From assembly GCA_048937405.1 (NCBI GenBank), contig JBHLNF010000013.1:19332-83331 (forward strand): DNA of 64,000 bases, written 5' to 3'. Origin of the DNA: Promethearchaeota archaeon (GTDB lineage: Archaea; Asgardarchaeota; Lokiarchaeia; Sigyniarchaeales; SOKP01). Numbering within the stretch: position 1 is the stretch's first letter; every line of letters starts with the position of its first letter. Under the pieces are notes generated by a model. The model was not told where the DNA came from and ran no database searches. It worked only from the letters and a program-made list of their open reading frames with translations. The position numbers and the translations under genes are program-made. Below are positions 6,424 through 60,783 of this stretch, piece by piece.

Positions 6424-7983
6424 TTATTCATATTCTATTGTACTAGGGGGCTTATTCGAGATATCATAAACCACACGATTAATTCCTTTAACTTCATTTA
6501 TTATTCTAGTACTAATCTTTTCTAATAAATCCCAATCTAATTTAGAGAAACTAGCCGTCATAACGTCTTCAGATTCAACGACCCTAATTGCGCATATATA
6601 CTCATAGGTCCTAAAATCTCCCATTACTCCAACGGTCTTCAATGGTAAAAATACACAAAAAGCTTGCCATAGATTCTCATAAATTCCGGCATTTTTAATT
6701 TCCTCAATTAAAATCTCGTCAGCTTCTCTCAATATCTCAAGTTTTTCCTTGTTGACTGGACCAATAATTCTTACGGCTAATCCAGGACCAGGGAATGGAT
6801 GTCTTGTAATAATTTCTTTTGGGACACCTAACTTCAGTCCAATTCTTCTTACCTCATCTTTATATAAATCTTTCAATGGTTCGAGAATTTCTAGCATCAT
6901 ATTATCGGGTAAAGTTAAATTATGGTGAGACTTTATTTTTGCTGATACTTTGCTTGTAGCACTTGTTTCTACCCGATCAGGATAGATAGTGCCTTGGGCT
7001 AAAAATTTTATATCTGGATTTACTTTTTCAAGTTCAATTGTTTTATTTTCAAATATTTCTATAAATGTATGACCAATAATTCGTCGCTTTTCTTCTGGAT
7101 CATCAATATTCTTAAGTTTCTCTAAAAATATATTTTCAGCATCAACATAATGAAAGTTTTTAAGTTGCAATTTATTTTTGAATGTTTCTTGAACTTCTAT
7201 TTCCTCATTCTTTCTTAATAATCCATTATTTACAAATATACAATGTAATCTATTGCCTATGGCCTTATTTAATAAAAAAGCGACTACTGAAGAATCTACA
7301 CCACCACTTAGACCTAAAATAACCTTTTTCTCCAAACCTACAACTTTTCTAATTTGATTAATTGAATTATCTATCCATCCCTCTAATTTCCATTCTTTTT
7401 TACATTGTGCAATTTTAAAAATAAAATTTTCGAGAATTATATTCCCCTTTGGAGTGTTAGTAACTTCTGGATGAAACTGAACTCCAAATAACTTTTTCTC
7501 TGGATTCCCATAAGCAGCAATAGGACAGTTTTCAGTTTTACCATATATTTCAAATCCTTCCGCTAATTCGGTAATTTGATCCCCATGTGACATCCAAACA
7601 ATTTCTTCGTTCTCTAGTGAATCAAATATTAGATTTGACTTTAAAATCGTAATTTGAGTTTTCCCATATTCTTTTTTTGTCTTCAGTTCTATATTTCCCC
7701 CATAAAATTGCATAATTAAATGATGACCATAACAAATCCCTAGAACGGGTATTTTTTCGTTACTTGAAAATTGAAAGAATTCTTCAGATAATTGAGGACC
7801 GTCTTGTTCATAGACACTACCAGGACCACCTGATAGAATTATTCCTTTAGGGTTGAATTCCTGAAGTTTTTTTAGATCTACATCATAAGGAAGAATTTCC
7901 GCATAAACTCCCAGATCTCTAATACGCCTTGTTATCAGATGCGCATATTGACCTCCAAAATCTAAAACAATTATAGTATCCAT
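6424..7983 (-). CDS. guaA: GMP synthase (fused GATase + ATPPase)
   Basis: LDFGGQY, GICYG, QFHPE, SGGVDS, IKSHHN, RHPFPGPGLAVR, KPPSTIEYE. Confidence 0.97.
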   Translation of the reverse strand: MDTIIVLDFGGQYAHLITRRIRDLGVYAEILPYDVDLKKLQEFNPKGIILSGGPGSVYEQDGPQLSEEFFQFSSNEKIPVLGICYGHHLIMQFYGGNIELKTKKEYGKTQITILKSNLIFDSLENEEIVWMSHGDQITELAEGFEIYGKTENCPIAAYGNPEKKLFGVQFHPEVTNTPKGNIILENFIFKIAQCKKEWKLEGWIDNSINQIRKVVGLEKKVILGLSGGVDSSVVAFLLNKAIGNRLHCIFVNNGLLRKNEEIEVQETFKNKLQLKNFHYVDAENIFLEKLKNIDDPEEKRRIIGHTFIEIFENKTIELEKVNPDIKFLAQGTIYPDRVETSATSKVSAKIKSHHNLTLPDNMMLEILEPLKDLYKDEVRRIGLKLGVPKEIITRHPFPGPGLAVRIIGPVNKEKLEILREADEILIEEIKNAGIYENLWQAFCVFLPLKTVGVMGDFRTYEYICAIRVVESEDVMTASFSKLDWDLLEKISTRIINEVKGINRVVYDISNKPPSTIEYE

Positions 7984-9180: not shown

Positions 9181-10584
9181 ATGGGGGATTACATGGTTAA
9201 AATACCAAGACAAAAAATGAGAGAACAAGACCCTTCAGAAAGAACACATAACTTTTATGAAGTTGCTTTAGGTTTTACTAAAGAGATGGCTGAAATAGAG
9301 GCCCAAAGATGTCTACAATGTGGTGACCCAAAATGTGTAAATGGATGTCCTGTCAATATTGATATCCCTAACTTTATTCGATTAATTAAGGAAGATAATT
9401 TATTGGAAGCTATTCGTAATATTAAAGAATATAATATTTTACCTGCAATATGTGGAAGAGTATGCCCCCAAGAAGTTCAATGTGAAGAAGCATGTATTCT
9501 AAGTAAAAGATGGGAACCTGTAGCAATTGGAGCACTTGAAAGATATGTTGCAGATTGGGAAAGAAAAAATCAACTGAAAGAGTGTCCTGATTGTGAAGCT
9601 CCTAATAACATAAAAGTTGCGGTCATCGGATCAGGACCTGCTGGTCTCACTTGCGCCGCTGATCTTGCTCGATTTGGATTTGATGTTACAATTTTTGAGG
9701 CATTTCATAAAGGTGGAGGCGTTTTAGTTTATGGAATCCCTGAATTTAGACTTCCTAAAGAAATTGTTAATGATGAAATTGAGACTCTAAAAATGTTAGG
9801 GGTTAAGATTAAGTACAATATGATAATAGGGAAAATATTAAATATAGATGATTTAAAGGAGATGGGCTTCAAAGCATTTTTTATAGGTGTTGGGGCAGGA
9901 TTACCATCAATGAGAAAAATTCCTGGAATGAATCTAAATGGAGTTCTAACTGCGAATGAATTTCTAACAAGAACTAATTTAATGAAAGCATATAAATTTC
10001 CAGAATACGATACGCCTATCAAAATAGGTAAAATAATTGCAGTCATTGGCGGAGGAAATGTAGCCTTAGATTCTGCTCGTGTTGCATTACGACTTGGTGC
10101 TGAAAAAGTTATTATAGTATATAGACGAACTGAAGCGGAAATGCCGGCAAGAAAAGAAGAGTACCACCACGCGGTAGAAGAAGGAATTGAATTTCAGTTT
10201 TTAGCAAATCCTATAAAATTTCTTGGAGATGATGAAGGAAATGTCAATAGGATGGAAGTTCTTAAAATGAAATTGGGAGAACCTGATGCTTCTGGAAGAC
10301 CAAGACCAATTCCAATTGAAAATTCAGAATATATTATTAATTGTGATACCATCATTATAGCAATTGGTACTAATGCTAACCCTGTTTTAACAAAATCAAT
10401 CCCAGACTTAAAATTAACTAAATGGGGTTATATAGAAACAGATGAAAATGGACATACAAATTTAGAAGGAATTTTTGCAGGTGGAGATATTGTAACTGGT
10501 TCAGCAACAGTAATCAGCGCGATGGGTGCAGGACGTAAAGCCGCAAAAACAATTAATCAATATTTAAAATCAAAATATTCATAA
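9181..10584 (+). CDS. sudA: NfnB/SudA (GltD-like) large subunit
   Basis: RCLQC..CVNGCP, CGRVCPQE.QCE, GSGPAG, GGGNVA, GGDIVTGSATVISAMGAG; abuts sudB. Confidence 0.9.
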   Translation: MGDYMVKIPRQKMREQDPSERTHNFYEVALGFTKEMAEIEAQRCLQCGDPKCVNGCPVNIDIPNFIRLIKEDNLLEAIRNIKEYNILPAICGRVCPQEVQCEEACILSKRWEPVAIGALERYVADWERKNQLKECPDCEAPNNIKVAVIGSGPAGLTCAADLARFGFDVTIFEAFHKGGGVLVYGIPEFRLPKEIVNDEIETLKMLGVKIKYNMIIGKILNIDDLKEMGFKAFFIGVGAGLPSMRKIPGMNLNGVLTANEFLTRTNLMKAYKFPEYDTPIKIGKIIAVIGGGNVALDSARVALRLGAEKVIIVYRRTEAEMPARKEEYHHAVEEGIEFQFLANPIKFLGDDEGNVNRMEVLKMKLGEPDASGRPRPIPIENSEYIINCDTIIIAIGTNANPVLTKSIPDLKLTKWGYIETDENGHTNLEGIFAGGDIVTGSATVISAMGAGRKAAKTINQYLKSKYS

Positions 10585-32129: not shown

Positions 32130-33811
32130 GATTTTGATATACTACTACGATATCGTTGAGCTATCACGCCAACTTTCTCAATTTTCTTCAGTTGTCTGAT
32201 CTTTCGGCGTTCTTTAATCATAAAATTGATTATATGCTTAGCAAGCCCACCTATTGCAAATCCTGCATTTCTATCAGTATCTTGAATCATTTTCATTAAT
32301 TCTCCTACTTTTTTATCACTAATAGGGCGTTTAAATTCATAGGGAATTTTTACTAGTTTTTTTTCTAATTCCTTTATATAAGATCTATTCTGAGGTGAGT
32401 AATCTTTAATTTTCCAAGGTATTAAATCATTTAATTCTTTCTCTTGATAATCTAATGATCCTGGAACTATATACATAGGCGCGGGACGCCATTGTATGGA
32501 TAATGGTGATTCATTTTGATTCTCTAATTTAACTCTCTTTTGAGAAAAATACTCAATTGTTTTAATTATATTAATGCAATTTTTTATTTCTTCTTCTAGA
32601 CTACTGAATCCTACTACTAGCATAGCTATAACATTAATACCTGAAGATGTTAAATTTTTGATTGTAGTAAAATTTTGATTAAGACTTATGCCCTTATTCA
32701 TTTCTTTTAGATTTTGCTCTGAAAAAGCTTCAAAACCAACCCAAGCATCATTAAATCCCGCTTTAAAAGCTTTTTTCGCAAGCTCTGGAGAAATATTAGC
32801 CCTAAAATGAGTCCCAAAATGCATATTGAAATTTCTCTCATGCATAGCATCACATAATTTCTCAAAATCTTGAAAATTATCATTTATTAATGATTCTCCA
32901 AAGATCATATAAAGAGGTTTAAAATTTTCGATAATTGTTTCAATATCATTAATAACCTTTTCTACTGAACGGACTCTAAATCGACAACCAAATAACTTCC
33001 ACTCTGCACAGAATTTACATCTGTTTGTACAACCCCTTGATCTATATATAGATGCAATCTGGAAATATGTATCTAATGGAATATTTGTATAATCTGGAGT
33101 TGGTAAACTATTAAGATCGAGTTCAATCCCAGGTCTATAATAATATCTCTCGTTATTTGGGTCTATTATTAACAATCCCTTAATTTCTTTTAAAGGAGTT
33201 TGTTTTGCAATCTCTAATAAGGGTTTTTCTCCTTCTCCAATAACAAGACCATCACACGCACCTAAATGTAAAAAGAGCTTAAATCCTTCGAAAGATTGAG
33301 TAATTGTAGGACCTCCCCAAAAAATTTGAATTTGGGGGTCAAAATTTTTTAATAAGCAAGAGGCTATTATTGTTTCTACAACATTTAAATAATCAAGTGA
33401 AAATGCTACGCTGGAAAAATTATTGAAAAGTTTCTTTACTATCCTCTTAACATAAATCATCATATCCTTATATCTTTTTTGTGTGATTTCTGGTTTTTCG
33501 TACAGTCTATTGGAATAATCATTAATTAAATCAACAAATTCATTTTTATCAAAACAGATTTCTTTATTAGATAGAATATATTCAGTTATAGGAACTAAAA
33601 TTGGAAAATCTTGATGATTCATAATGAAATTAGGAGGTTTTAATTGAATTAAAGGATCTGAGACTATTTTTGGTAAATTATATTTATTAGTTCTGAAATT
33701 ATATACTTTGACTTCAGTATCATGTTGTTTCAAATAAGCTTGTAAGCAAGCTATTCCTAATGGTATTAATCTGTTATCTAAGTTTGATATTTTTACTAAG
33801 GCAATTGTCAT
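32126..33811 (-). CDS. B12-binding-domain radical SAM protein
   Basis: PLGIACLQAYLK, WGGP, VIGEGE, SRGCTNRCKFC, GFEAFS...LKEMNKG. Confidence 0.85.
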   Translation of the reverse strand: MTIALVKISNLDNRLIPLGIACLQAYLKQHDTEVKVYNFRTNKYNLPKIVSDPLIQLKPPNFIMNHQDFPILVPITEYILSNKEICFDKNEFVDLINDYSNRLYEKPEITQKRYKDMMIYVKRIVKKLFNNFSSVAFSLDYLNVVETIIASCLLKNFDPQIQIFWGGPTITQSFEGFKLFLHLGACDGLVIGEGEKPLLEIAKQTPLKEIKGLLIIDPNNERYYYRPGIELDLNSLPTPDYTNIPLDTYFQIASIYRSRGCTNRCKFCAEWKLFGCRFRVRSVEKVINDIETIIENFKPLYMIFGESLINDNFQDFEKLCDAMHERNFNMHFGTHFRANISPELAKKAFKAGFNDAWVGFEAFSEQNLKEMNKGISLNQNFTTIKNLTSSGINVIAMLVVGFSSLEEEIKNCINIIKTIEYFSQKRVKLENQNESPLSIQWRPAPMYIVPGSLDYQEKELNDLIPWKIKDYSPQNRSYIKELEKKLVKIPYEFKRPISDKKVGELMKMIQDTDRNAGFAIGGLAKHIINFMIKERRKIRQLKKIEKVGVIAQRYRSSISKS

Positions 33812-33898
33812 CTTTTTGATCTTATCTTCTTTTTAAAATACTAATTTAATCACAATTTTGATTCAAATATATAAAGAAAAAAATATGTAAATAAGGAA

Positions 33899-35056
33899 TT
33901 ATAGACGTTTTTGGAAGACATAGTGTTTTCTAACTGGAATACAATGAGGAAATATTGTATCAATTGCTAGGGAATTATTTGACCAAATAGTTGTACCTTC
34001 AAAATAATCAATACCATATAAATTAGCTGTTAATTGTCCAATATTATTAAGAGCAGAGAAAATACCCTTTCCAAAATATCCTTTTTTTACCATTGCTGTA
34101 TCCACATTACAACGACTAACTGGATTTCCACCCAATAACTCATATAAGTCTGGAAGTCCCAATAGAATCCCAACTAAAGCTCCTGTCTTTTTATCAAAAG
34201 CCATTGGAGCTAAAGGCTCTATCTTTTCGACGTCACAAGTCTGCAAAGCATCACTGAATTGTGGTATCTCAGAATTACGTCTTAAACTAAATTCTTTCTG
34301 ATTTTTATTAAAACATTTAGGGTATCTATTAAAGGCCTCAAAAAATTCATGAATTCTATTGATTCCTGATGAATCAGGCATTATTTGATATAATGAATTA
34401 GCAGCAAGACTCTCAATATCATCAATATAGTTATAGAGTTCTTCAAGAATAAAATACCTAAATATAATATCTTTATCTACTTTTTTTCCTTTTTTCCAAG
34501 TTTTTTGAGCAACATGAACACAAGTATATTCTGATTCTTTATAGTATCCTAAGGTTTGCAGATAATCTGATATTTTTAAACGTGGGTCAGTAAATGCCAC
34601 ACCATAAAGCATTTGCTCATGAAATCCCATAGTTTGTATACCAATACCTCCTAAACTTTTAGGAAAATTAATAGGGCCCCTAATTTTTCTAATTTTATTG
34701 ATTTTAATAAATTCTTCACATAATTCAATCATTTTTTTACACACTTTAAATGAATCTGCAGTTAACCAACCAAAGGTACCACATTTTCTACTATAGCTCG
34801 TATAATGCGGATGTATACAACATATCACGAATCCAGAAATCTCTCCGTTCTGATATCCAATTATGGGTTTAAACTTATATTGTGGATCTGATAGCTTATC
34901 TTTTAAAAATAAGAAAAGTTCATCAATCAGTTTAGGCTTGATATGAATATCTGGAACATATAATCTTTTTTCTAATGCTTTTCTTATCTCTTCAAGATCA
35001 AAAGTTACTTTTACATTAATTATACCAGTGTTGCGTTTCTCTAATACCTGAACCAA
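33899..35056 (-). CDS. GNAT-fold protein (YghO-like)
   Basis: FGWL, IRGPINF, GF...YL..LGY.K, V..GYFGKGIFSAL, IWSNN. Confidence 0.65.
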   Translation of the reverse strand: MVQVLEKRNTGIINVKVTFDLEEIRKALEKRLYVPDIHIKPKLIDELFLFLKDKLSDPQYKFKPIIGYQNGEISGFVICCIHPHYTSYSRKCGTFGWLTADSFKVCKKMIELCEEFIKINKIRKIRGPINFPKSLGGIGIQTMGFHEQMLYGVAFTDPRLKISDYLQTLGYYKESEYTCVHVAQKTWKKGKKVDKDIIFRYFILEELYNYIDDIESLAANSLYQIMPDSSGINRIHEFFEAFNRYPKCFNKNQKEFSLRRNSEIPQFSDALQTCDVEKIEPLAPMAFDKKTGALVGILLGLPDLYELLGGNPVSRCNVDTAMVKKGYFGKGIFSALNNIGQLTANLYGIDYFEGTTIWSNNSLAIDTIFPHCIPVRKHYVFQKRL

Positions 35057-36959: not shown

Positions 36960-37082
36960 GATTTGCTCCCACCCCATACCCTGGATTTTTGTCTTTTGGT
37001 AGTGTAGTTTTCTACACTCTGATTTCGCCCTCCTCCTTACTATTTTTGGCGCGTATTTGCGTTAGTGGGGCGGGAGTAGATC
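36960..37082 (+). ncRNA. Unrecognised structured RNA/element, copy A (orientation provisional)
   Basis: Closing stem CTCCCACCCCA/TGGGGCGGGAG, invariant CCCTGGATTTTTGTCTTTTGGT (36979-37000), hairpins GTGTAG/CTACAC and CGCG/TGCG; homologous to 60666-60783. Confidence 0.7.
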
Positions 37083-37180
37083 TACCTTTTTAAGTAAAGA
37101 GATCCATTTTCCTCTTTATCCCTTTTTTCCTTTAAATTAAAGTAAGTTACCTTAATTTCATAATAAATAGAAAGTGATAG

Positions 37181-37486
37181 ATAATCGTAATCGTTTTTGG
37201 GAAAATAAAAGATGAACAGAAGGTTAAACAACAAACTCAGAAAGTCACTTGTCCCATGTGTCAGCAGAGTATAGATCTTGGAATAGAATTAAATATTATG
37301 AAGAAAAAAGATACATCTATTTATTTTCCTCATATTCATTTACATGGGGATCCTTTGCATGCCTTAATTTGTTATTTGAATTCAGAATTAATTGTAAGAA
37401 ATATAGGTGTTATCCAGAGTATAGAAATTGCTCGTAATTCAGAGACTTTTAGACAACTCATGAAGAAATGGACAAATCCCTACTAA
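37181..37486 (+). CDS. Small Asgard Zn-binding protein (CxxC ... HxH..H); start lies upstream of the tracked ATG, probably ATA/ATC
   Basis: ATG 37256 lies inside the CPMC motif; frame is open from 37181; HIHLHGDPLH. Confidence 0.65.
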   Translation: MIVIVFGKIKDEQKVKQQTQKVTCPMCQQSIDLGIELNIMKKKDTSIYFPHIHLHGDPLHALICYLNSELIVRNIGVIQSIEIARNSETFRQLMKKWTNPY

Positions 37487-37502
37487 AAGGTGATTTAAAA
37501 GC

Positions 37503-40031
37503 ATGATAACGGATTTTACTTCTAAAATTGAGAAAGAGAAATTAGATGATTATAATATAAAAGAGATTTTCAAATATATTTCAGATAAACGTATTGTACG
37601 AGTGCTTTTTGAAGGAAAAATTTTTCAACTGCGTGAGATTCAAAAAGAAGCCATTGAAAAAGGATTATTTTTCAGAAAATCTTTTTTAGTCTGTGCCCCA
37701 TCTGGGAGTGGTAAAACATTAATTGGAGAAATTTGTGCGATTCATAATGCTTTCCAGGCTTTTGGAAAATCTATTTATTTGGTTCCATATAAGGCCCTTG
37801 CAACAGAAAAATATTATCATTTTAAAAAGAATTATGAACGATTTAATTTGAAAATCGAACTTTCAATAGGAGATTATGATATTGATGATTCTAAGTTACA
37901 GAAAACTGATATTATTGTTACAACATATGAAAAGATGGACTCAATATTAAGGAATTTCTATGATAAGGAATGGATTTTTGAAATTTCCACAATTATTATT
38001 GATGAGATTCATGTAATTGGTGAAAGTGATCGTGGTCCAAGATTAGAATCACTGATAGTTAGGTTGAACGAATTTCTGCATAATCCTCAAATTATTGGGC
38101 TTTCTGCTACTATTGCAAATCCTGAATTTTTCAATTCATGGTTATCTTCACTTGGTAATAAAACAACTTTAATAAAATCTGATGAGCGTCCTGTACCGCT
38201 TCACTATAAGATTGAGATTACTCAAAATAAAGATTCTACCATAAGAAGACTTGTAAAAAACACATTAGAAAAAAATGGACAAGTATTAATTTTCTCAAAT
38301 AAAAGAAAGGGAGCACAGCAATCAGCGGAAAATATTAAACATATCGTAAAAAAAACCTTAGAAGAAAATGAATTAAATATTTGTAAGGCATTAGAAAAGC
38401 GACTCTCTTCAATTAGGGGAAGTCATGGAGATTTAAGAAATGTAGTTAAGTCTGGGGTTGCTTTTCATCATGCTGGGCTGCTTCCTAGAGAAAGAAAAAT
38501 AATAGAAGATAATTATAGAAAAAGAATTATAAAAGTTATATGCTGTACTACAACTTTATCAGCAGGCGTAAATACTCCTGCGAGATTAGTGATTCTCAAG
38601 GACTTTAAAAAATATATTACTTCTGGACATAACATAAGAAATTTTAGCGACTTTCACGAAAATGGAGATGGTTTTTCTTATTTTAAATCTTTTTCTGCTA
38701 ACGAGGTTTTTCAAATTTTAGGTCGAGCAGGAAGACCTGGACTTGATTCAGTTGGTTATGGTATTATTTTGACTAAAAATGTTAATGAAAAAATGTGGGT
38801 TGAGGAACATTTCTTTCAGAATCAACCTTTAAAAAATTCATTAATTCCTCGATATAATAATTTAATATCTGGATTAAATAAAATCAATACCCTTAAAGAA
38901 CAAGTCCTCCTGAGAGTTTATGAGGAAAAAAAAATAACATTAGAGCAGTTGAAAGAATTTTTTGAAAAGACATATTTCTGGTATGGAATTAAAAATTCAA
39001 TGAAGGAACAAAAAATTCCAGTTGAACAATTACTAATGATTAAGGAAATAACCCCGATAAATATACTAAAACTTCATTCTAATGCTAAAAAAGTAAATAA
39101 TTTAATGAATGGGGTGTGTGAATCGAAAATTTCTAAATTTAGTGATGAAAACATCTCCGGATATGTGAAAACTCAATTTGGAGTATTTTTTTGCCAATTT
39201 GATATAACCTCTGGTATCCAATGCTCTTGTGGGTTTGAAAATGGTATCTCTGATAATTTTGCGAATAATGAATTCTCATTTGAGTCTTGCGAACATGTTA
39301 CGGCGTTTTTACTCTATTTATTACAATACCCTGACATTAATTTTCAAAAGTATGTTGATTCTATAGTACCTAAATCTGTTAAGAATCAATATATCTTAAG
39401 TTATTTATTCGAAAAGGGTTTAATCATTAAAAATGAAGATGGATCAATACATTGTTCTCAATTTGGAAAATTAATTATTAGACTATATCTTTATCCTGTA
39501 TCTGGAGTAATTATTAGATATAAATTAGAAAATGTCGAAATAAATAGTATTCAAAACTTAATTAAAGAAGCTTATGATGTTCTAAAGACAGAATTTCGAG
39601 TGAAGGATAACAAGATGCTCCATCCAATTTTGGAATGGGCAGATGAAGAACCTATTGAAGAAATATTGGAAAAATACAATATTATGATAGGGGATCTATT
39701 CTCAATTAGAGATAATCTAGAAAGAATTATTACTTTTATAGGAATTATCGCTAGTAATTTAAGTACCCATGGAATTGACTTACAAGATAAATTAGTACGA
39801 ATTGCTGAGATGGCAGAAACTTTAAAGATTCGATTACATTATGGCATTCGGGAGGAACTGTTTGATTTAGTTCTTAGATTAAATGATGTTGGACGTGTGA
39901 GAGCAAGAATTCTCTATAATGCAGGTTACCACACCGCAACTCAAGTAAGGAAAGAAAATCCTTATGTTCTTAATAAGAAAACAGGATTAGGAATTAATTT
40001 ATGTAAGAAAATTATTAAAAAAGACAGATGA
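37503..40031 (+). CDS. Ski2/Hel308-like SF2 helicase with inserted SWIM Zn finger and C-terminal HhH
   Basis: APSGSGKT, DEIH, LSAT, HHAGL, TTTLSAGVNTPA, QILGRAGRPG; CSC...CEH; VGRVRARILYNAG. Confidence 0.9.
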   Translation: MITDFTSKIEKEKLDDYNIKEIFKYISDKRIVRVLFEGKIFQLREIQKEAIEKGLFFRKSFLVCAPSGSGKTLIGEICAIHNAFQAFGKSIYLVPYKALATEKYYHFKKNYERFNLKIELSIGDYDIDDSKLQKTDIIVTTYEKMDSILRNFYDKEWIFEISTIIIDEIHVIGESDRGPRLESLIVRLNEFLHNPQIIGLSATIANPEFFNSWLSSLGNKTTLIKSDERPVPLHYKIEITQNKDSTIRRLVKNTLEKNGQVLIFSNKRKGAQQSAENIKHIVKKTLEENELNICKALEKRLSSIRGSHGDLRNVVKSGVAFHHAGLLPRERKIIEDNYRKRIIKVICCTTTLSAGVNTPARLVILKDFKKYITSGHNIRNFSDFHENGDGFSYFKSFSANEVFQILGRAGRPGLDSVGYGIILTKNVNEKMWVEEHFFQNQPLKNSLIPRYNNLISGLNKINTLKEQVLLRVYEEKKITLEQLKEFFEKTYFWYGIKNSMKEQKIPVEQLLMIKEITPINILKLHSNAKKVNNLMNGVCESKISKFSDENISGYVKTQFGVFFCQFDITSGIQCSCGFENGISDNFANNEFSFESCEHVTAFLLYLLQYPDINFQKYVDSIVPKSVKNQYILSYLFEKGLIIKNEDGSIHCSQFGKLIIRLYLYPVSGVIIRYKLENVEINSIQNLIKEAYDVLKTEFRVKDNKMLHPILEWADEEPIEEILEKYNIMIGDLFSIRDNLERIITFIGIIASNLSTHGIDLQDKLVRIAEMAETLKIRLHYGIREELFDLVLRLNDVGRVRARILYNAGYHTATQVRKENPYVLNKKTGLGINLCKKIIKKDR

Positions 40032-58008: not shown

Positions 58009-59616
58009 ATGGATACAAGTTCAGATTTCATTAGACCGGAATTTCTTAATATCTTATTCTTTCAACAAAAAAATTTAGTTATATTTCCGTATATTGATCT
58101 AAAACATCTTCATACATTAGAGATTTATACTGTAGGATATAATATAATCGACCTTGAATCTACAGCACTTAATAATTTAAAAGAAATTATTGAGTTTGAG
58201 TCTACTAATTCATATTCTCAAAATCCTACACTCTATTTTATTTATAATGTTGATCGTAAAAACGTGAAGGAATTAATGGAGTTAAATGGAATCAGGTGTG
58301 TCATTAATTCAAATGAAAATATCAGTGATTTAATCAATGGAACTAAGTTTATTTTTTTTAATAAGAAAAATAATCAATTTCTTAATTATGAAAATGATAA
58401 TTCAGAGTTAGAATTTGAAAATCATCTAATATCAGCTTCCCAAGATGAGGAGATTTTATTGGAAAAAATTCATGAAATTAAAATGGCAGCAAGTAGGATA
58501 TTTCGTGAATTGAATCAAAAAAACAACTTAGATAGACTTTCTGATATTCTACAAGAGTTTGATCAGAAATATTGGGATCCTATTTTACAATTTACACGTC
58601 TTTATTACGATATAAATATCCCAAATATCTCCAAGATTAAATCCAAAAAACAAAAGATCTTAAAAGACTTCTCAAAAGAATATGAATTACTTATTTCTAA
58701 TAATAAACCGATTGGAAAAGAGTTTATTCAGTTGCTTCATGAATATCGAAGTAAAAAAGTAAATCCACATCATTTAAAATTAGAGGAATTATACAATCCA
58801 TTAAAATTATATAACTATTTAAGAAATCATCATTGGAAAAACGGAATTCCAAAAGATTTTATCTCTGAATGGATTCAGATGAAAATATCTGGTTATAAAT
58901 TCAACGAGTCAGACCAAGAAGATTTTAAAATAATTCTAAAGATGTTAGAATTATATCCAGATTCTTCTTTATTAGACCATAAAAATCCATTATCTTCTCT
59001 TGAATCAAAAAAACACAGTAAAATTATTCCTTCACTTTATAATGAGTGGGATAAATTTAAATTGTGGTTGGTTCGTTGCATCAATGACATTGAAGCGATA
59101 TTAGAAAAAAATAATACATTTCCAGAGGATCAATCATATCTGATGAAAAATTTTCTGGAAATTATTAATCTTATAACAATTAAACCTCCTTTTAAAAGTA
59201 AAGAAAGAGAATTTAATAATAATCTTCTTTTAGTAGATATTTCTAATCTATTAAACATGGATAAAGATGAAAATGATAAGATAAAGGTTAATAATATTCA
59301 AAAAGTGAGGGATGTCATAATATCTATAGGTTATACACCAAGAATGATTGCGGATGCTTCTATGAGACATCACATCGATGATGACGATAAATATAAAGAA
59401 TTTATTGAGAAAAAAATTATACTTCAAGCACCTGCTGGAACAGAAGCAGATGAATATATATTAGAGATTGCTAAAGTAGAGAAATCTAGATTTCTTACTA
59501 ATGATATGTTTGAAAAATATTGGAAAGAATTTGGAAAAGATTGGATTTTTCAAAATCGCTTAACTTGTTTGTTTTTTAATGGGAAATTTATCATTCGCAA
59601 CAATATAAAGAGATGA
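58009..59616 (+). CDS. Protein with C-terminal Zc3h12a/Regnase-like NYN (PIN-fold) ribonuclease domain
   Basis: LLVDISN, ADAS.RH.ID, APAGTEADEYIL, FLTNDMF. Confidence 0.8.
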   Translation: MDTSSDFIRPEFLNILFFQQKNLVIFPYIDLKHLHTLEIYTVGYNIIDLESTALNNLKEIIEFESTNSYSQNPTLYFIYNVDRKNVKELMELNGIRCVINSNENISDLINGTKFIFFNKKNNQFLNYENDNSELEFENHLISASQDEEILLEKIHEIKMAASRIFRELNQKNNLDRLSDILQEFDQKYWDPILQFTRLYYDINIPNISKIKSKKQKILKDFSKEYELLISNNKPIGKEFIQLLHEYRSKKVNPHHLKLEELYNPLKLYNYLRNHHWKNGIPKDFISEWIQMKISGYKFNESDQEDFKIILKMLELYPDSSLLDHKNPLSSLESKKHSKIIPSLYNEWDKFKLWLVRCINDIEAILEKNNTFPEDQSYLMKNFLEIINLITIKPPFKSKEREFNNNLLLVDISNLLNMDKDENDKIKVNNIQKVRDVIISIGYTPRMIADASMRHHIDDDDKYKEFIEKKIILQAPAGTEADEYILEIAKVEKSRFLTNDMFEKYWKEFGKDWIFQNRLTCLFFNGKFIIRNNIKR

Positions 59617-59740: not shown

Positions 59741-60586
59741 ATGATAATTTGGATATTAGATGCCGAATCTGGAGTTAAATTGCTATACAGATCCTTTTTG
59801 AAAACAGATGCAGATGAGGATATAGTGTCTGGATTTTTAACAGCGTTTCATCATTTCTCTATGGTAGAATTTAAAGAATCATTAGATTCTATAGAAATGG
59901 GTGGTCTAAGGTGGGTTTATATCCTAGAAGAAAAATTAAAATTACTTTTTGTTGCTGCTGATACAAAACATACGAAGACAGAAATCCTTCTAGGGCGATT
60001 AAATGTAATTAAAAATGCATTTGTAAAAGAATTTACACCTGTTTGGGAAAAAAAAGGTTATAATTGGGACGGAGATATTAACATTTTTTTACCATTTCTT
60101 AATGAGATTGAAGACTACTATGATCAATGGGGAGAAGTAGAAAATTTAGCTCAGATGGCTGATTTTTTTGATATTTTAGGTATCTTTCAAAAAATTTTAA
60201 TTATGCTACGAAATGTTATAGAAAAAAAAATGTATTCCAAATCAAAGATTTTTATACTTAATAAAATAGAAGAGAAATTCAATACATTAAAAAATCAAAA
60301 AGATTCTAAAAATAAAACAGAGTTAAAGAATATTACTTTCAGTAAAGATACTTGGTTTAACATTAAAGATATCGATTTGATCAAAAGTGATACTAATTTA
60401 GTCTTTAAAAATTTAAAAACTATTCTTTCGGATATTATAAATATTTTAAAAGAAGTAAAGGGAAATAATGCGTGTTTCAAATATTTTAGTGAGGAACAAA
60501 TATATGCCTATCTTTTCAACAATATGAGATTATTAAAAGATTTAAAATTAGATACATTTTTATTAGAACTATTTCTTTTACTTTAA
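59741..60586 (+). CDS. Asgard longin-like domain protein, paralogue of 13582..14427
   Basis: IWILDAESGVKL..DIVSGFLTA...F..SIEMGGLRWVY..FFDILGIFQ. Confidence 0.7.
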   Translation: MIIWILDAESGVKLLYRSFLKTDADEDIVSGFLTAFHHFSMVEFKESLDSIEMGGLRWVYILEEKLKLLFVAADTKHTKTEILLGRLNVIKNAFVKEFTPVWEKKGYNWDGDINIFLPFLNEIEDYYDQWGEVENLAQMADFFDILGIFQKILIMLRNVIEKKMYSKSKIFILNKIEEKFNTLKNQKDSKNKTELKNITFSKDTWFNIKDIDLIKSDTNLVFKNLKTILSDIINILKEVKGNNACFKYFSEEQIYAYLFNNMRLLKDLKLDTFLLELFLLL

Positions 60587-60665: not shown

Positions 60666-60783
60666 GGCTCCTGCCAATAAGCCTCAGAAAGAGGCATAAA
60701 ATTTTAAAAGGCAGAGTAGGTAAATCTTATGTGTAATTTCTTACACAACCAAAAGACAAAAATCCAGGGGATTGACAGGAGCC
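60666..60783 (-). ncRNA. Unrecognised structured RNA/element, copy B (orientation provisional)
   Basis: 13-bp closing stem GGCTCCTGTCAAT/ATTGGCAGGAGCC, same 22-mer (60748-60769), hairpins GTGTAA-GAAA-TTACAC and GCCTC/GAGGC; lies between convergent genes. Confidence 0.7.

What the first reader, a model, noticed from the sequence alone, without database searches (positions are those of the whole stretch)
36960..37082. Novel ~120-nt structured RNA family: two covarying copies with an invariant 22-mer
Seen: copy A (+, 36960-37082) and copy B (-, 60666-60783) share one architecture. A long GC-rich closing stem is followed by an identical single-stranded CCCUGGAUUUUUGUCUUUUGGU, a hairpin (GUGUAG/CUACAC versus GUGUAA/UUACAC, compensatory), GAUUU, a pyrimidine-rich linker, a second hairpin of different sequence, UUA and the closing strand. 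Stems differ in sequence but keep pairing, which is the signature of selection on structure. G.U pairs and a GAAA tetraloop mostly favour the U-rich strand. Copy B lies between convergent genes, so it is not a 5' riboswitch. It resembles no tRNA, C/D, H/ACA, RNase P, SRP or ribozyme pattern I recognise.
Basis: seen in the sequence. Interest (0 to 1): 0.87.

Follow-up and report, generated by a model that had tools for sequence, protein, structure and literature searches.

The report
Lokiarchaeal structured small RNA gene family
Both flagged elements are real copies of an uncatalogued, roughly 118-nucleotide folded RNA gene that one family of Loki-type Asgard archaea keeps in 1-18 copies per genome; its job is unknown, but its invariant U-rich loop resembles a docking site for Sm-like proteins.

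Summary
Copy A (36960-37082, +) and copy B (60666-60783, -) share an exact 22-mer, with none expected by chance. Both fold far better than shuffles on the proposed strand.

They are two of six copies in this Promethearchaeota/Lokiarchaeia genome. Covariance-model searches find the RNA in 122 of 130 genomes of the same taxonomic family, at 1-18 copies each. It occurs in only 1 of 19 genomes from the other families of the order, and in 0 of 125 genomes from 26 other Asgard families.

Across ten genera the closing stem and both hairpins covary at every modelled pair, while CUGGAUUUUUGUCUUUUGGU stays essentially invariant. A second C/U-rich block (GCCCUCCUCC) is also conserved.

It matches no Rfam family. 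It is not a tRNA, a C/D or H/ACA RNA, a MITE, a conserved small ORF or a fixed 5' leader.

New here: six family members in other genomes carry a 29-31-nt insertion at one point of the invariant loop. The insertion has exact bulge-helix-bulge (tRNA-intron) geometry, and removing it restores the core. This argues for transcription and RNA-level function.

Function is unresolved. My best guess is a trans-acting RNP RNA bound by Sm-like proteins. Expression was not testable.

This scan had already found the same family on other DNA (e1-5517015).

The parts
36960..37082 (+). Copy A, whole RNA gene (123 nt; closing stem P1 is 4 bp longer than in other members through matched insertions on both strands)
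   Evidence: Fold z = -6.4; covariance-model hit at window 36964-37078, 104.8-108.8 bits; GC 0.48 against 0.29 for the genome
36960..36976 (+). Copy A, P1 5' strand (pairs with 37066-37082)
   Evidence: MFE structure; all 11 modelled P1 pairs have changes on both sides across the family
36979..37000 (+). Copy A, invariant 22-mer. The A 5' of the 22-mer (36978) with its first CC pairs with the terminal GGU to form the short helix P2; the enclosed CUGGAUUUUUGUCUUUU is the conserved loop with the Sm-site-like AUUUUUG
   Evidence: Exact repeat; AUUUUUG in 76 of 80 distinct members; P2 covaries at 2 of 3 pairs; the GGAU/GUCU mini-helix never covaries and is only ever broken
37001..37018 (+). Copy A, hairpin 1 (AGUGUAG UUUU CUACACU)
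   Evidence: 7 of 7 pairs have changes on both sides across the family
37019..37046 (+). Copy A, single-stranded linker with GAUUU and the C/U-rich block CGCCCUCCUCC (37026-37036), which contains the anti-Shine-Dalgarno pentamer CCUCC
   Evidence: Unpaired in the MFE structure; mean unpaired probability of the C/U run is 0.84 across the family; CCUCC in 44 of 80 and a C-rich tetramer in 71 of 80 members; the 16S 3' end of a relative reads GGAUCACCUCC
37047..37064 (+). Copy A, hairpin 2 (UGGCGCG UAUU UGCGUUA)
   Evidence: 5 of 5 pairs have changes on both sides across the family, and some members lack this hairpin
37066..37082 (+). Copy A, P1 3' strand
37084..37091 (+). Copy A, conserved 3' tail ACC-UUUUU (family consensus NCC(Y)UUU), probably an oligo-U terminator or 3' tail
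   Evidence: 3' flank frequencies: C 0.80, C 0.71, then T 0.53-0.76. Reading it as a terminator is inference
60666..60783 (-). Copy B, whole RNA gene (118 nt)
   Evidence: Fold z = -6.1; covariance-model hit at exactly these ends, 105-109 bits; this paralogue type lies next to the 281-aa ORF in 7 species
60748..60769 (-). Copy B, invariant 22-mer
60731..60746 (-). Copy B, hairpin 1 (GUGUAA GAAA UUACAC)
60696..60730 (-). Copy B, linker (AUAAGAUUUACCUACUCUGCCUUUU...). It is C/U-rich but lacks CCUCC
60681..60695 (-). Copy B, hairpin 2 (GCCUC UUUCU GAGGC)
60771..60783 (-). Copy B, P1 5' strand (pairs with 60666-60678)

Best explanation
Copies A and B are stand-alone genes of a lineage-specific, multicopy, stable small RNA of about 118 nt.

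Shown: an 11-13-bp closing stem (P1) brings the two ends together. From the junction it displays a short helix P2 capped by an invariant U-rich loop (CUGGAUUUUUGUCUUUU), hairpin 1, a single-stranded linker with a conserved GAUUU-YGCCCUCCUCC block, and an optional hairpin 2. A conserved NCC(Y)UUU tail follows.

Inferred:
- The RNA is transcribed from the U-rich strand and ends at the oligo-U tail.
- In intron-bearing members it is matured by the tRNA splicing endonuclease.
- It acts in trans as the RNA of an RNP.
- The invariant loop (A-U5-G followed by a hairpin) is a sequence-specific protein platform, most plausibly for an Sm-like (SmAP/LSm) ring.
- The exposed C/U-rich block is available for pairing with purine-rich sites such as Shine-Dalgarno sequences.

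My odds: about 0.9 that it is a real functional RNA gene family, about 0.3 that it binds Sm-like proteins, and about 0.2 that it pairs with SD-like sites.
For: Identity as an RNA
- Exact 22-mer with 0 expected by chance.
- Fold z = -6.4 and -6.1 on this strand against about -4 on the other.
- In a plain MAFFT alignment of the six paralogues, 11 of 30 pairs are kept through changes on both sides.
- In 54 sequences from ten genera, 93% of cells are paired, against 70% in shuffles and 38-50% when partners are slid. P1 covaries at 11 of 11 pairs, hairpin 1 at 7 of 7 and hairpin 2 at 5 of 5.
- Frequent G-U pairs would be A-C mismatches on the other strand.
- GC is 0.40-0.48 in a genome of 0.29.

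Distribution and gene-like behaviour
- Present in 122 of 130 genomes of the family, 1 of 19 in the rest of the order, and 0 of 125 in 26 other Asgard families.
- Similarity between paralogues starts within about 5 nt of G+1 and ends within about 10 nt after P1.
- One paralogue type sits in the same gene neighbourhood in about 35 species.

Transcription and processing (indirect)
- Six members in three genera have a 29-31-nt insertion between CUGGAU and UUUUGUC.
- In all six, intron nucleotides -6 to -3 pair 4 of 4 with the exon CUGG. This holds only in that register: 24 of 24 pairs, against 5-17 of 24 in eleven other registers.
- The insertion is flanked by 3-nt bulges AU|N and AR|U and closed by an inner helix. 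Removing it restores the invariant core exactly.
- This is the bulge-helix-bulge definition given in PMC4090602.

Platform idea
- AUUUUUG occurs in 76 of 80 distinct members, with AAUUUUG in others. It is never supported as paired by covariation and is followed by a hairpin.
- The Sm-site consensus AAUUUUUGG, and sequence-specific binding of a 19-nt motif by an archaeal SmAP, are documented in PMC5587771.
- The genome encodes four LSm-domain proteins scoring over the Pfam cut-off.

C/U block
- Mean unpaired probability is 0.84, and CCUCC occurs in 44 of 80 members.
- CCUCC equals the 16S 3' end of a relative.
- GGAGG is 11-fold enriched upstream of start codons in this genome.
Against: - No expression data could be obtained, so the 5' and 3' ends are inferred only.
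- No TATA box lies at a fixed distance upstream.
- The Sm-site resemblance is a 7-nt motif in a U-rich context, and the nucleotide after the G is U, not the consensus purine.
- No Sm-like paralogue tracks the RNA's distribution. The two main ones have orthologues throughout the order, the third has about 40%-identical relatives in a family that lacks the RNA, and the fourth is found only in this genome.
- Predicted duplexes of the linker with translation-start regions are no more frequent than with internal coding controls: 197 against 262 at <= -14 kcal/mol.
- The best single candidate target, the rps4e start region, is complementary beyond the SD core only in this genome.
- Copy B's linker lacks CCUCC.
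- A 20-nt invariant stretch is longer than a typical sRNA seed or a minimal Sm site, so something else may constrain it.
Confidence: 0.5

Rival explanations
1. The RNA is a scaffold or catalytic component of an unknown RNP, or a mimic of an RNA-processing substrate, with no antisense or Sm role. The invariant loop and the NCC tail would be recognised by some other lineage-specific protein or by tRNA-processing enzymes, since P1 of about 12 bp plus 3' NCC resembles an acceptor/T-arm minihelix.
For: Twenty invariant nucleotides are more typical of core RNP RNAs than of regulatory sRNAs. NCC is conserved directly after P1. Some members carry introns of the tRNA type. No target was found. The strict restriction to one family would fit a lineage-specific partner.
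Against: No candidate partner gene is linked to the RNA: the neighbours are unrelated housekeeping or membrane proteins. Position 4 after P1 is U or C, not A, so CCA is not encoded, and tRNA genes of this genome are not followed by CC. No ribozyme family matches.
Confidence: 0.25
2. It is a guide or antisense RNA whose invariant loop pairs with a conserved cellular RNA (rRNA, tRNA or another ncRNA), in the manner of a modification or processing guide.
For: Invariance of a single-stranded 17-20-mer is what a conserved pairing partner would impose.
Against: The genome holds no complement to the core, even allowing G-U pairs or 5 mismatches, apart from the RNA's own antisense strand. Best duplexes with six 23S rRNAs and one 16S rRNA of the family are no better than with shuffled queries. 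The C box UGAUGA occurs in 1 of 77 members, and an ACA box follows P1 in 2 of 77.
Confidence: 0.08
3. It is a cis-acting leader, riboswitch or attenuator of the downstream gene (for copy A, the small ORF and Hel308-like helicase at 37256-40031).
For: Copy A, the C28 copy, the C7 copy and one C11 copy have a downstream gene in the same orientation.
Against: Copy B and the other C11 copy face convergent genes. Downstream genes are unrelated: helicase, radical SAM, RadA, lectin-like. The conserved oligo-U tail directly after P1 and homology confined to the RNA indicate a separate unit.
Confidence: 0.05
4. It is a mobile DNA repeat (MITE-like, or an integration-site remnant) rather than a functional RNA.
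For: Copy number varies from 1 to 18 and positions are mostly not syntenic. Several copies sit at contig ends. In one genome, subfamilies share about 100 nt upstream and occur as tandem pairs.
Against: The 'terminal inverted repeat' (P1) changes sequence while keeping pairing, including G-U pairs, which DNA recognition would not explain. There is no target-site duplication: the longest word shared by the two flanks averages 3.69 nt, against 3.66 for re-paired flanks. No transposase or integrase recurs nearby. One paralogue type is syntenic in about 35 species. Of four viral-collection matches, two lie in a coding sequence, one is weak (22 bits) and one is a real copy at the end of a 225-kb contig.
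Confidence: 0.04
5. It is a leaderless mRNA for a micropeptide that starts at the ATG overlapping the first base (raised by other first-stage notes on relatives).
For: All six copies in this genome have ATG at -2..+1.
Against: Only 40 of 77 distinct members have that ATG. The core is read in two different frames (31 and 9 members), and ORF lengths range from 6 to 47 aa. The core is invariant at every nucleotide, including would-be wobble positions, and the stems covary.
Confidence: 0.03

Closest known systems
Sm-class snRNAs, and SmAP/LSm- or Hfq-bound small RNAs
   Same: A single-stranded A-U5-G heptad followed directly by a hairpin (the Sm-site consensus AAUUUUUGG is quoted in PMC5587771). 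A short oligo-U 3' tail. Multicopy small stable RNA genes. The genome has several Sm-like proteins.
   Different: No binding has been shown. The nucleotide after the G is U, not a purine. The invariant block is 20 nt, far longer than an Sm site. No snRNA model matches. The RNA is confined to one family of Lokiarchaeia, so it is not an ancestral Asgard trait.
C-rich, anti-SD-like base-pairing sRNAs (RsaE/RoxS of Firmicutes, sRNA41 of Methanosarcina mazei). Named from my own knowledge and from note e1-5455846; not tested here
   Same: An exposed C/U-rich single-stranded tract containing CCUCC, complementary to Shine-Dalgarno sequences. These are enriched upstream of genes in this genome.
   Different: No enrichment of predicted pairing at start regions and no conserved target. 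The C/U tract lies in a junction linker, not in hairpin loops. There is an additional, much more strongly conserved U-rich loop.
GC-rich-island small RNA genes of AT-rich archaea (the class found by GC-content screens, e.g. the Hgc RNAs in Rfam). Recalled, not tested
   Same: A 40-48% GC structured island in a 29% GC genome, with its own flanks and an oligo-U end.
   Different: No match to any of those Rfam families. This family is multicopy, and some of its members carry introns.
tRNA genes of Asgard archaea (as a gene class, not as homologues)
   Same: Multicopy stable RNA genes with paired ends. Some members are interrupted by bulge-helix-bulge introns at one fixed position. Asgard tRNA genes are heavily interrupted (preprint 10.64898/2026.10.13.758758, title and abstract seen).
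   Different: No cloverleaf: ARAGORN and the Rfam tRNA model find nothing here. There is no anticodon arm, and the 3' NCC is followed by U or C, not A.
Y RNAs
   Same: About 100-120 nt, a long stem formed by the two ends, and a pyrimidine-rich internal region.
   Different: No Ro/TROVE protein in a genome rated 100% complete, and no match to the Y RNA models.

Membership tests
Any Rfam 15 family | Score at or above the family's gathering threshold | tested here: not met
   0 matches in the whole window. At E <= 10 on copy A and on the best-conserved paralogue there is only a 14-bit chance hit in the upstream flank
tRNA / tmRNA | Cloverleaf detectable by ARAGORN | tested here: not met
   0 genes in the window
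Box C/D sRNA | C box RUGAUGA near the 5' end and D box CUGA near the 3' end | tested here: not met
   UGAUGA in 1 of 77 members. CUGA in 33 of 77, and internal, after hairpin 1
Box H/ACA sRNA | ACA triplet directly 3' of the hairpin | tested here: not met
   ACA within 5 nt after P1 in 2 of 77 members; the consensus there is NCC
Y RNA | Co-occurring Ro (TROVE-domain) protein | tested here: not met
   PF05731 not found in the genome (completeness 100%); the named control genomes do give matches
Sm-class / Sm-like-bound RNA | Single-stranded Sm site RAU4-6GR flanked by stem-loops | tested here: inconclusive
   G-AUUUUUG-U in 76 of 80 members, not supported as paired, with a hairpin 10 nt downstream. 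The 3' flanking base is U, not a purine
Sm-class / Sm-like-bound RNA | Physical binding by an Sm/LSm ring | not testable with these tools
   Four LSm-domain genes exist, but none shares the RNA's distribution
MITE / IS end | Conserved terminal inverted repeats, target-site duplication, near-identical copies | tested here: not met
   P1 covaries at 11 of 11 pairs; no shared flank word above control; paralogues are 71-85% identical over the RNA only
Leaderless micropeptide gene | Conserved start codon and reading frame | tested here: not met
   ATG in 40 of 77 members; two frames; ORFs of 6-47 aa
Archaeal BHB-intron-containing RNA genes (applies to six relatives, not to the window's copies) | 4-bp helix flanked by two 3-nt bulges that carry the splice sites (PMC4090602) | tested here: met
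   6 of 6 insertions: 4 of 4 pairs with the exon CUGG in one register only, bulges AU|N and AR|U, an inner helix, and exact restoration of the core. Splicing itself was not observed
rRNA-targeting guide RNA | Complementarity to rRNA above chance | tested here: not met
   Best duplexes with six 23S rRNAs and one 16S rRNA of the family equal those of shuffled queries
Vault RNA | Co-occurring major vault protein | not tested
   No search was made; no vault RNA model matched

The most novel reading that the evidence does not exclude
The RNA is the dedicated RNA subunit of an Sm-ring particle in Lokiarchaeia. On this reading, a prokaryotic Sm-class RNP assembles on an snRNA-like 'Sm site plus adjacent hairpin' code. 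Its genes, like tRNA genes, can carry endonuclease-spliced introns. Its exposed C/U-rich arm engages purine-rich RNA sites. That would be an independent archaeal analogue of snRNP architecture in the closest relatives of eukaryotes.
Probability: 0.12. Interest if true: 0.9.

Novelty: new variant of a known kind. Interest (0 to 1): 0.65.

Why it matters
Almost nothing is known about non-coding RNAs of Asgard archaea. This is a well-supported, abundant RNA family with clear sequence and structure rules that defines one whole family of Lokiarchaeia.

Its 20-nt invariant loop is conserved more strictly than its own stems, which points to a specific and still unknown molecular partner. If that partner is an Sm-like ring, the RNA gives a tractable system for asking what Sm proteins did before spliceosomes existed.

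Introns with tRNA-type splice geometry in some members widen the known substrate range of the archaeal splicing endonuclease beyond tRNA, rRNA and a few mRNAs. They also provide a built-in, sequence-only argument that the element works as RNA.

In practice, the covariance model could be added to annotation pipelines so that these loci stop being read as empty intergenic DNA or spurious small ORFs.

Tried and rejected
- Rfam at gathering and permissive thresholds: nothing. ARAGORN: nothing.
- Literature: four full-text searches found no description of this RNA.
- Ro/TROVE: not found.
- Linked partner gene: neighbours of the six copies, and of about 100 related loci, share nothing beyond local synteny. 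The syntenic 130-aa neighbour is a membrane protein.
- Sm-like paralogues against the RNA's distribution: no paralogue is limited to the RNA-bearing family.
- Trans targets: the genome has no complement to the core or to the C/U block apart from the RNA's own antisense strand.
- Linker against start regions: no better than against internal coding controls. The top hits are strong SDs of ribosomal-protein genes (rps4e, rpl14).
- rps4e complementarity beyond the SD core: not conserved in 20 same-genus genomes.
- rRNA: rRNA genes are not assembled in this genome or in two single-contig relatives. 23S from six genomes and 16S from one genome of the family show no complementarity above shuffled queries.
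- Viral link: four IMG/VR matches to the 19-mer. Two lie inside a long ORF (chance), one is weak, and one is a real copy at the start of a 225-kb contig. There is no evidence of viral carriage.
- Synteny of copy B: only 2 of 34 loci fetched via the neighbouring PhzF gene hold the RNA within 3 kb.
- Promoter: no TATA-like box lies at a constant distance from G+1.
- GGAU/GUCU mini-helix in the loop: predicted by the energy model but never supported by covariation.

Full report
**Observation.** Copy A (window 36960-37082, +) and copy B (60666-60783, -) are as described.
- The 22-mer CCCTGGATTTTTGTCTTTTGGT occurs exactly twice, with none expected by chance.
- On the proposed strand the two RNAs fold at -47.7 and -41.5 kcal/mol (z = -6.4 and -6.1). 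The opposite strand gives z of about -4.
- Copy A lies between divergent genes: a GNAT-like ORF, and a small ORF plus a Hel308-like helicase. Copy B lies between convergent genes: a 281-aa longin-like ORF and a cation-efflux transporter.
- No Rfam family and no tRNA is found in the window. Permissive Rfam scans of the copies also give nothing.

**How many and where.** The window belongs to a 4.47-Mb, 29% GC genome in 29 contigs. Relatives fetched through a neighbouring gene are titled Promethearchaeota/Promethearchaeia MAGs, including Loki_b32 and a single-contig chromosome.
- The genome holds six copies: the two in the window, one on C28, two 2.7 kb apart on C11, and one on C7.
- A covariance model built from the six finds the RNA in 23 of 24 sampled species of the genus.
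- A refined model finds it in 122 of 130 genomes of the taxonomic family (12 of 13 genera, 1-18 copies). In the other three families of the order it finds 1 of 19, a single hit on a 1.8-kb contig.
- A third model, built from ten genera, finds it in 25 of 25 genomes of the family and in 0 of 125 genomes from 26 other Asgard families.
- More than 120 sediment-metagenome contigs carry the exact 19-nt core.

**Structure.**
- In a plain MAFFT alignment of the six paralogues, RNAalifold recovers the closing stem P1, a short helix P2, hairpin 1 and hairpin 2. Eleven of 30 pairs are kept through changes on both sides.
- In 34 sequences of the genus, 95.5% of cells pair and 18 pairs show double changes.
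- In 54 sequences from ten genera, 93% of cells pair. That compares with 70% after shuffling and 38-50% when partners are slid by 1-3 columns.
- In that larger set P1 covaries at 11 of 11 pairs, hairpin 1 at 7 of 7, hairpin 2 at 5 of 5 and P2 at 2 of 3.
- These two larger alignments were fitted to the model and therefore lean towards it. The size of the effect and the independent six-sequence result make the structure secure.
- The GGAU/GUCU mini-helix that the energy model draws inside the loop never covaries and is only ever broken, so the U-rich segment is best read as a loop.
- Copy A's P1 is 4 bp longer through matched insertions on both strands, keeping the terminal G-C pair.

**Conserved sequence.**
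- CUGGAUUUUUGUCUUUUGGU is essentially invariant in all genera, while every helix changes sequence. AUUUUUG is present in 76 of 80 distinct members.
- A second block, (U)GAUUU-YGCCCUCCUCC(CCCUAU), lies in the linker. Its C/U run has a mean unpaired probability of 0.84, and CCUCC occurs in 44 of 80 members.
- Upstream DNA is A-rich and not conserved, apart from A(-2) and U(-1) before G(+1).
- Downstream of P1 the consensus is NCC(Y)UUU.
- Similarity between paralogues is confined to the RNA.

**What it is not.**
- Not a MITE: the ends covary, there is no target-site duplication (3.69 against 3.66 nt in the control), and no transposase recurs nearby.
- Not a conserved small ORF: the ATG is present in 40 of 77 members, the core is read in two frames, and ORFs run 6-47 codons.
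- Not a C/D or H/ACA RNA.
- Not a Y RNA: no TROVE protein is found in a complete genome.
- Not a fixed leader: two of the six copies face convergent genes, and downstream genes are unrelated.
- Not virus-borne.
- One paralogue type (the C28 copy) sits in the same neighbourhood, between a membrane protein and a radical-SAM gene, in about 35 species. The copy-B type sits next to the longin-like ORF in 7 species. These are vertically inherited genes.

**Introns in relatives.** While reading divergent members I saw two with an insertion in the invariant loop. A pattern search over 134 genomes of the family found six such copies in four genomes of three genera.
- All six insertions are 29-31 nt long and sit between CUGGAU and UUUUGUC.
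- In all six, nucleotides -6 to -3 of the insertion (CUGG, CCGG, CCAG, CCGG, UCAG, UCAG) pair 4 of 4 with the exon CUGG.
- The two nucleotides that follow (AA or AG) and the first exon U form a 3-nt bulge. AU plus the first inserted nucleotide form the other bulge. The interior closes with its own helix.
- Deleting the insertion restores CUGGAUUUUUGUCUUUUGG exactly, within a complete canonical RNA.
- The pairing exists only in that register: 24 of 24 pairs, against 5-17 of 24 in eleven other registers. The interiors are otherwise dissimilar.
- This is the textbook bulge-helix-bulge motif, a 4-bp helix flanked by two 3-nt bulges that carry the splice sites (PMC4090602). Cleavage falls after the second bulge nucleotide on each strand, as at the canonical tRNA position.
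- Splicing was not observed. The geometry is nevertheless hard to explain unless these genes are transcribed from this strand, are cut by the tRNA splicing endonuclease, and need the intact core.
- The window's own copies have no insertion.

**Function.** I could not establish it.
- Base pairing with a partner: no full or wobble-tolerant complement to the core or to the C/U block exists in the genome. 23S rRNAs of six family members and one 16S rRNA give duplexes no better than shuffled queries.
- Anti-SD reading: the C/U block contains the anti-SD pentamer (the 16S 3' end is GGAUCACCUCC in a relative), and GGAGG is 11-fold enriched upstream of start codons.
- Against that reading: predicted duplexes with start regions are not enriched over internal controls. 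The top candidate, rps4e in the ribosomal-protein operon, is complementary beyond the SD core only in this genome.
- Protein binding: the loop's A-U5-G followed by a hairpin resembles the Sm site (consensus AAUUUUUGG). An archaeal SmAP is known to bind a specific 19-nt motif (PMC5587771).
- The genome has four LSm-domain genes scoring over the Pfam cut-off. Two have orthologues at 38-67% identity across the order. A third (102 aa, with an acidic tail) is 80-88% identical within the genus, with only about 40%-identical relatives in a family lacking the RNA. The fourth, which carries an in-frame TAA, is found only in this genome.
- None of these shares the RNA's distribution. That neither supports nor excludes binding, because lineage-specific sRNAs on a conserved chaperone are common.

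**Verdict.** This is a real, uncatalogued, family-specific structured small RNA gene family; I put that at about 0.9.
- Most likely mechanism: a trans-acting RNP RNA whose invariant loop is a protein platform (Sm-like ring, about 0.3) and whose C/U block may pair with purine-rich sites (about 0.2).
- Main rival: an RNP scaffold with another partner.
- An earlier follow-up of this scan reached the same family from another genome (e1-5517015). My results agree with it, except that I find the RNA essentially in one family, with a single hit in a sister family.

Noticed in passing
L341-L346 (G126:C75:10637-10684, G126:C208:2583-2632, G113:C229:3313-3362, G113:C343:1210-1257, G119:C31:98976-99024, G129:C4:181043-181091): Six members of the family carry 29-31-nt insertions with exact bulge-helix-bulge geometry at one fixed site in the invariant loop. 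Removing them restores the core. These are candidate endonuclease-spliced introns in a gene that is neither tRNA nor rRNA.
   Followed up: yes
G000:C11:31037-31156 and 33810-33927 (L042 about 7037-7156 and 9810-9927): Two tandem copies flank a 762-aa SIR2-like/TPR protein. Both are followed about 27 nt downstream by a shared fragment, CCCCUUGAGAGUCACCUUUUU, that looks like the 3' end of a further, degraded copy.
   Followed up: partly
G000:C7:75948-76211 (L186:1483-1746, -): An LSm-domain gene with an in-frame TAA between a 24-codon N-terminal part and the Sm fold. No orthologue was found in 40 relatives; they give only 41% cross-hits to the main SmAP. It could be a pseudogene, a recent acquisition or a recoded gene.
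   Followed up: partly
G000:C16:84415-84720 (P0006): A third Sm-like protein of 102 aa with an acidic C-terminal tail. It is 80-88% identical in 22 of 24 species of the genus, with only about 40%-identical relatives in 2 of 16 genomes from the other families of the order.
   Followed up: partly
whole genome G000: ARAGORN finds only 7 tRNA genes in 4.47 Mb, and no 16S or 23S rRNA is assembled. A single-contig relative (G023) holds only a 123-nt 3' fragment of 16S followed by a tRNA. This fits heavily interrupted tRNA genes and unassembled rRNA operons in these MAGs.
   Followed up: no
window 58009-59616 (+) and 59741-60586 (+): Next to copy B lie a 535-aa protein with a C-terminal Zc3h12a-like NYN ribonuclease domain and a 281-aa protein with a weak longin-domain match. 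The latter is syntenic with copy-B-type RNAs in 7 species.
   Followed up: no
G129 loci L204-L220: One genome has 18 copies. One subfamily shares about 100 nt of upstream sequence in addition to the RNA. Another occurs as tandem pairs 288 nt apart inside an 870-nt segment found twice on one contig. These look like recent local gene duplications.
   Followed up: partly
L169, L172, L176 (genus g20): These members have an extra perfect 6-7-bp hairpin (for example CAGCGG-GUAGGA-CCGCUG) inserted just before the conserved UGAUUUU of the linker. It is a plain accessory hairpin, not a bulge-helix-bulge motif.
   Followed up: partly
G000:C7:197278 and 198150 (L347:1278 and 2150): The start regions of rpl14 and rps4e in the ribosomal-protein operon carry unusually long G-rich SD-like tracts (GGUGGGGGGGUGG and GGAGAAGGAGGGCG). 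They were the top predicted partners of the RNA's C/U block. The extension beyond the SD core is not conserved in relatives.
   Followed up: yes
L240, L267, L270, L287, L300 (LAZR01 contigs): The exact 19-nt core is present on several contigs with the accession prefix LAZR01, and on many other sediment metagenome contigs.
   Followed up: no
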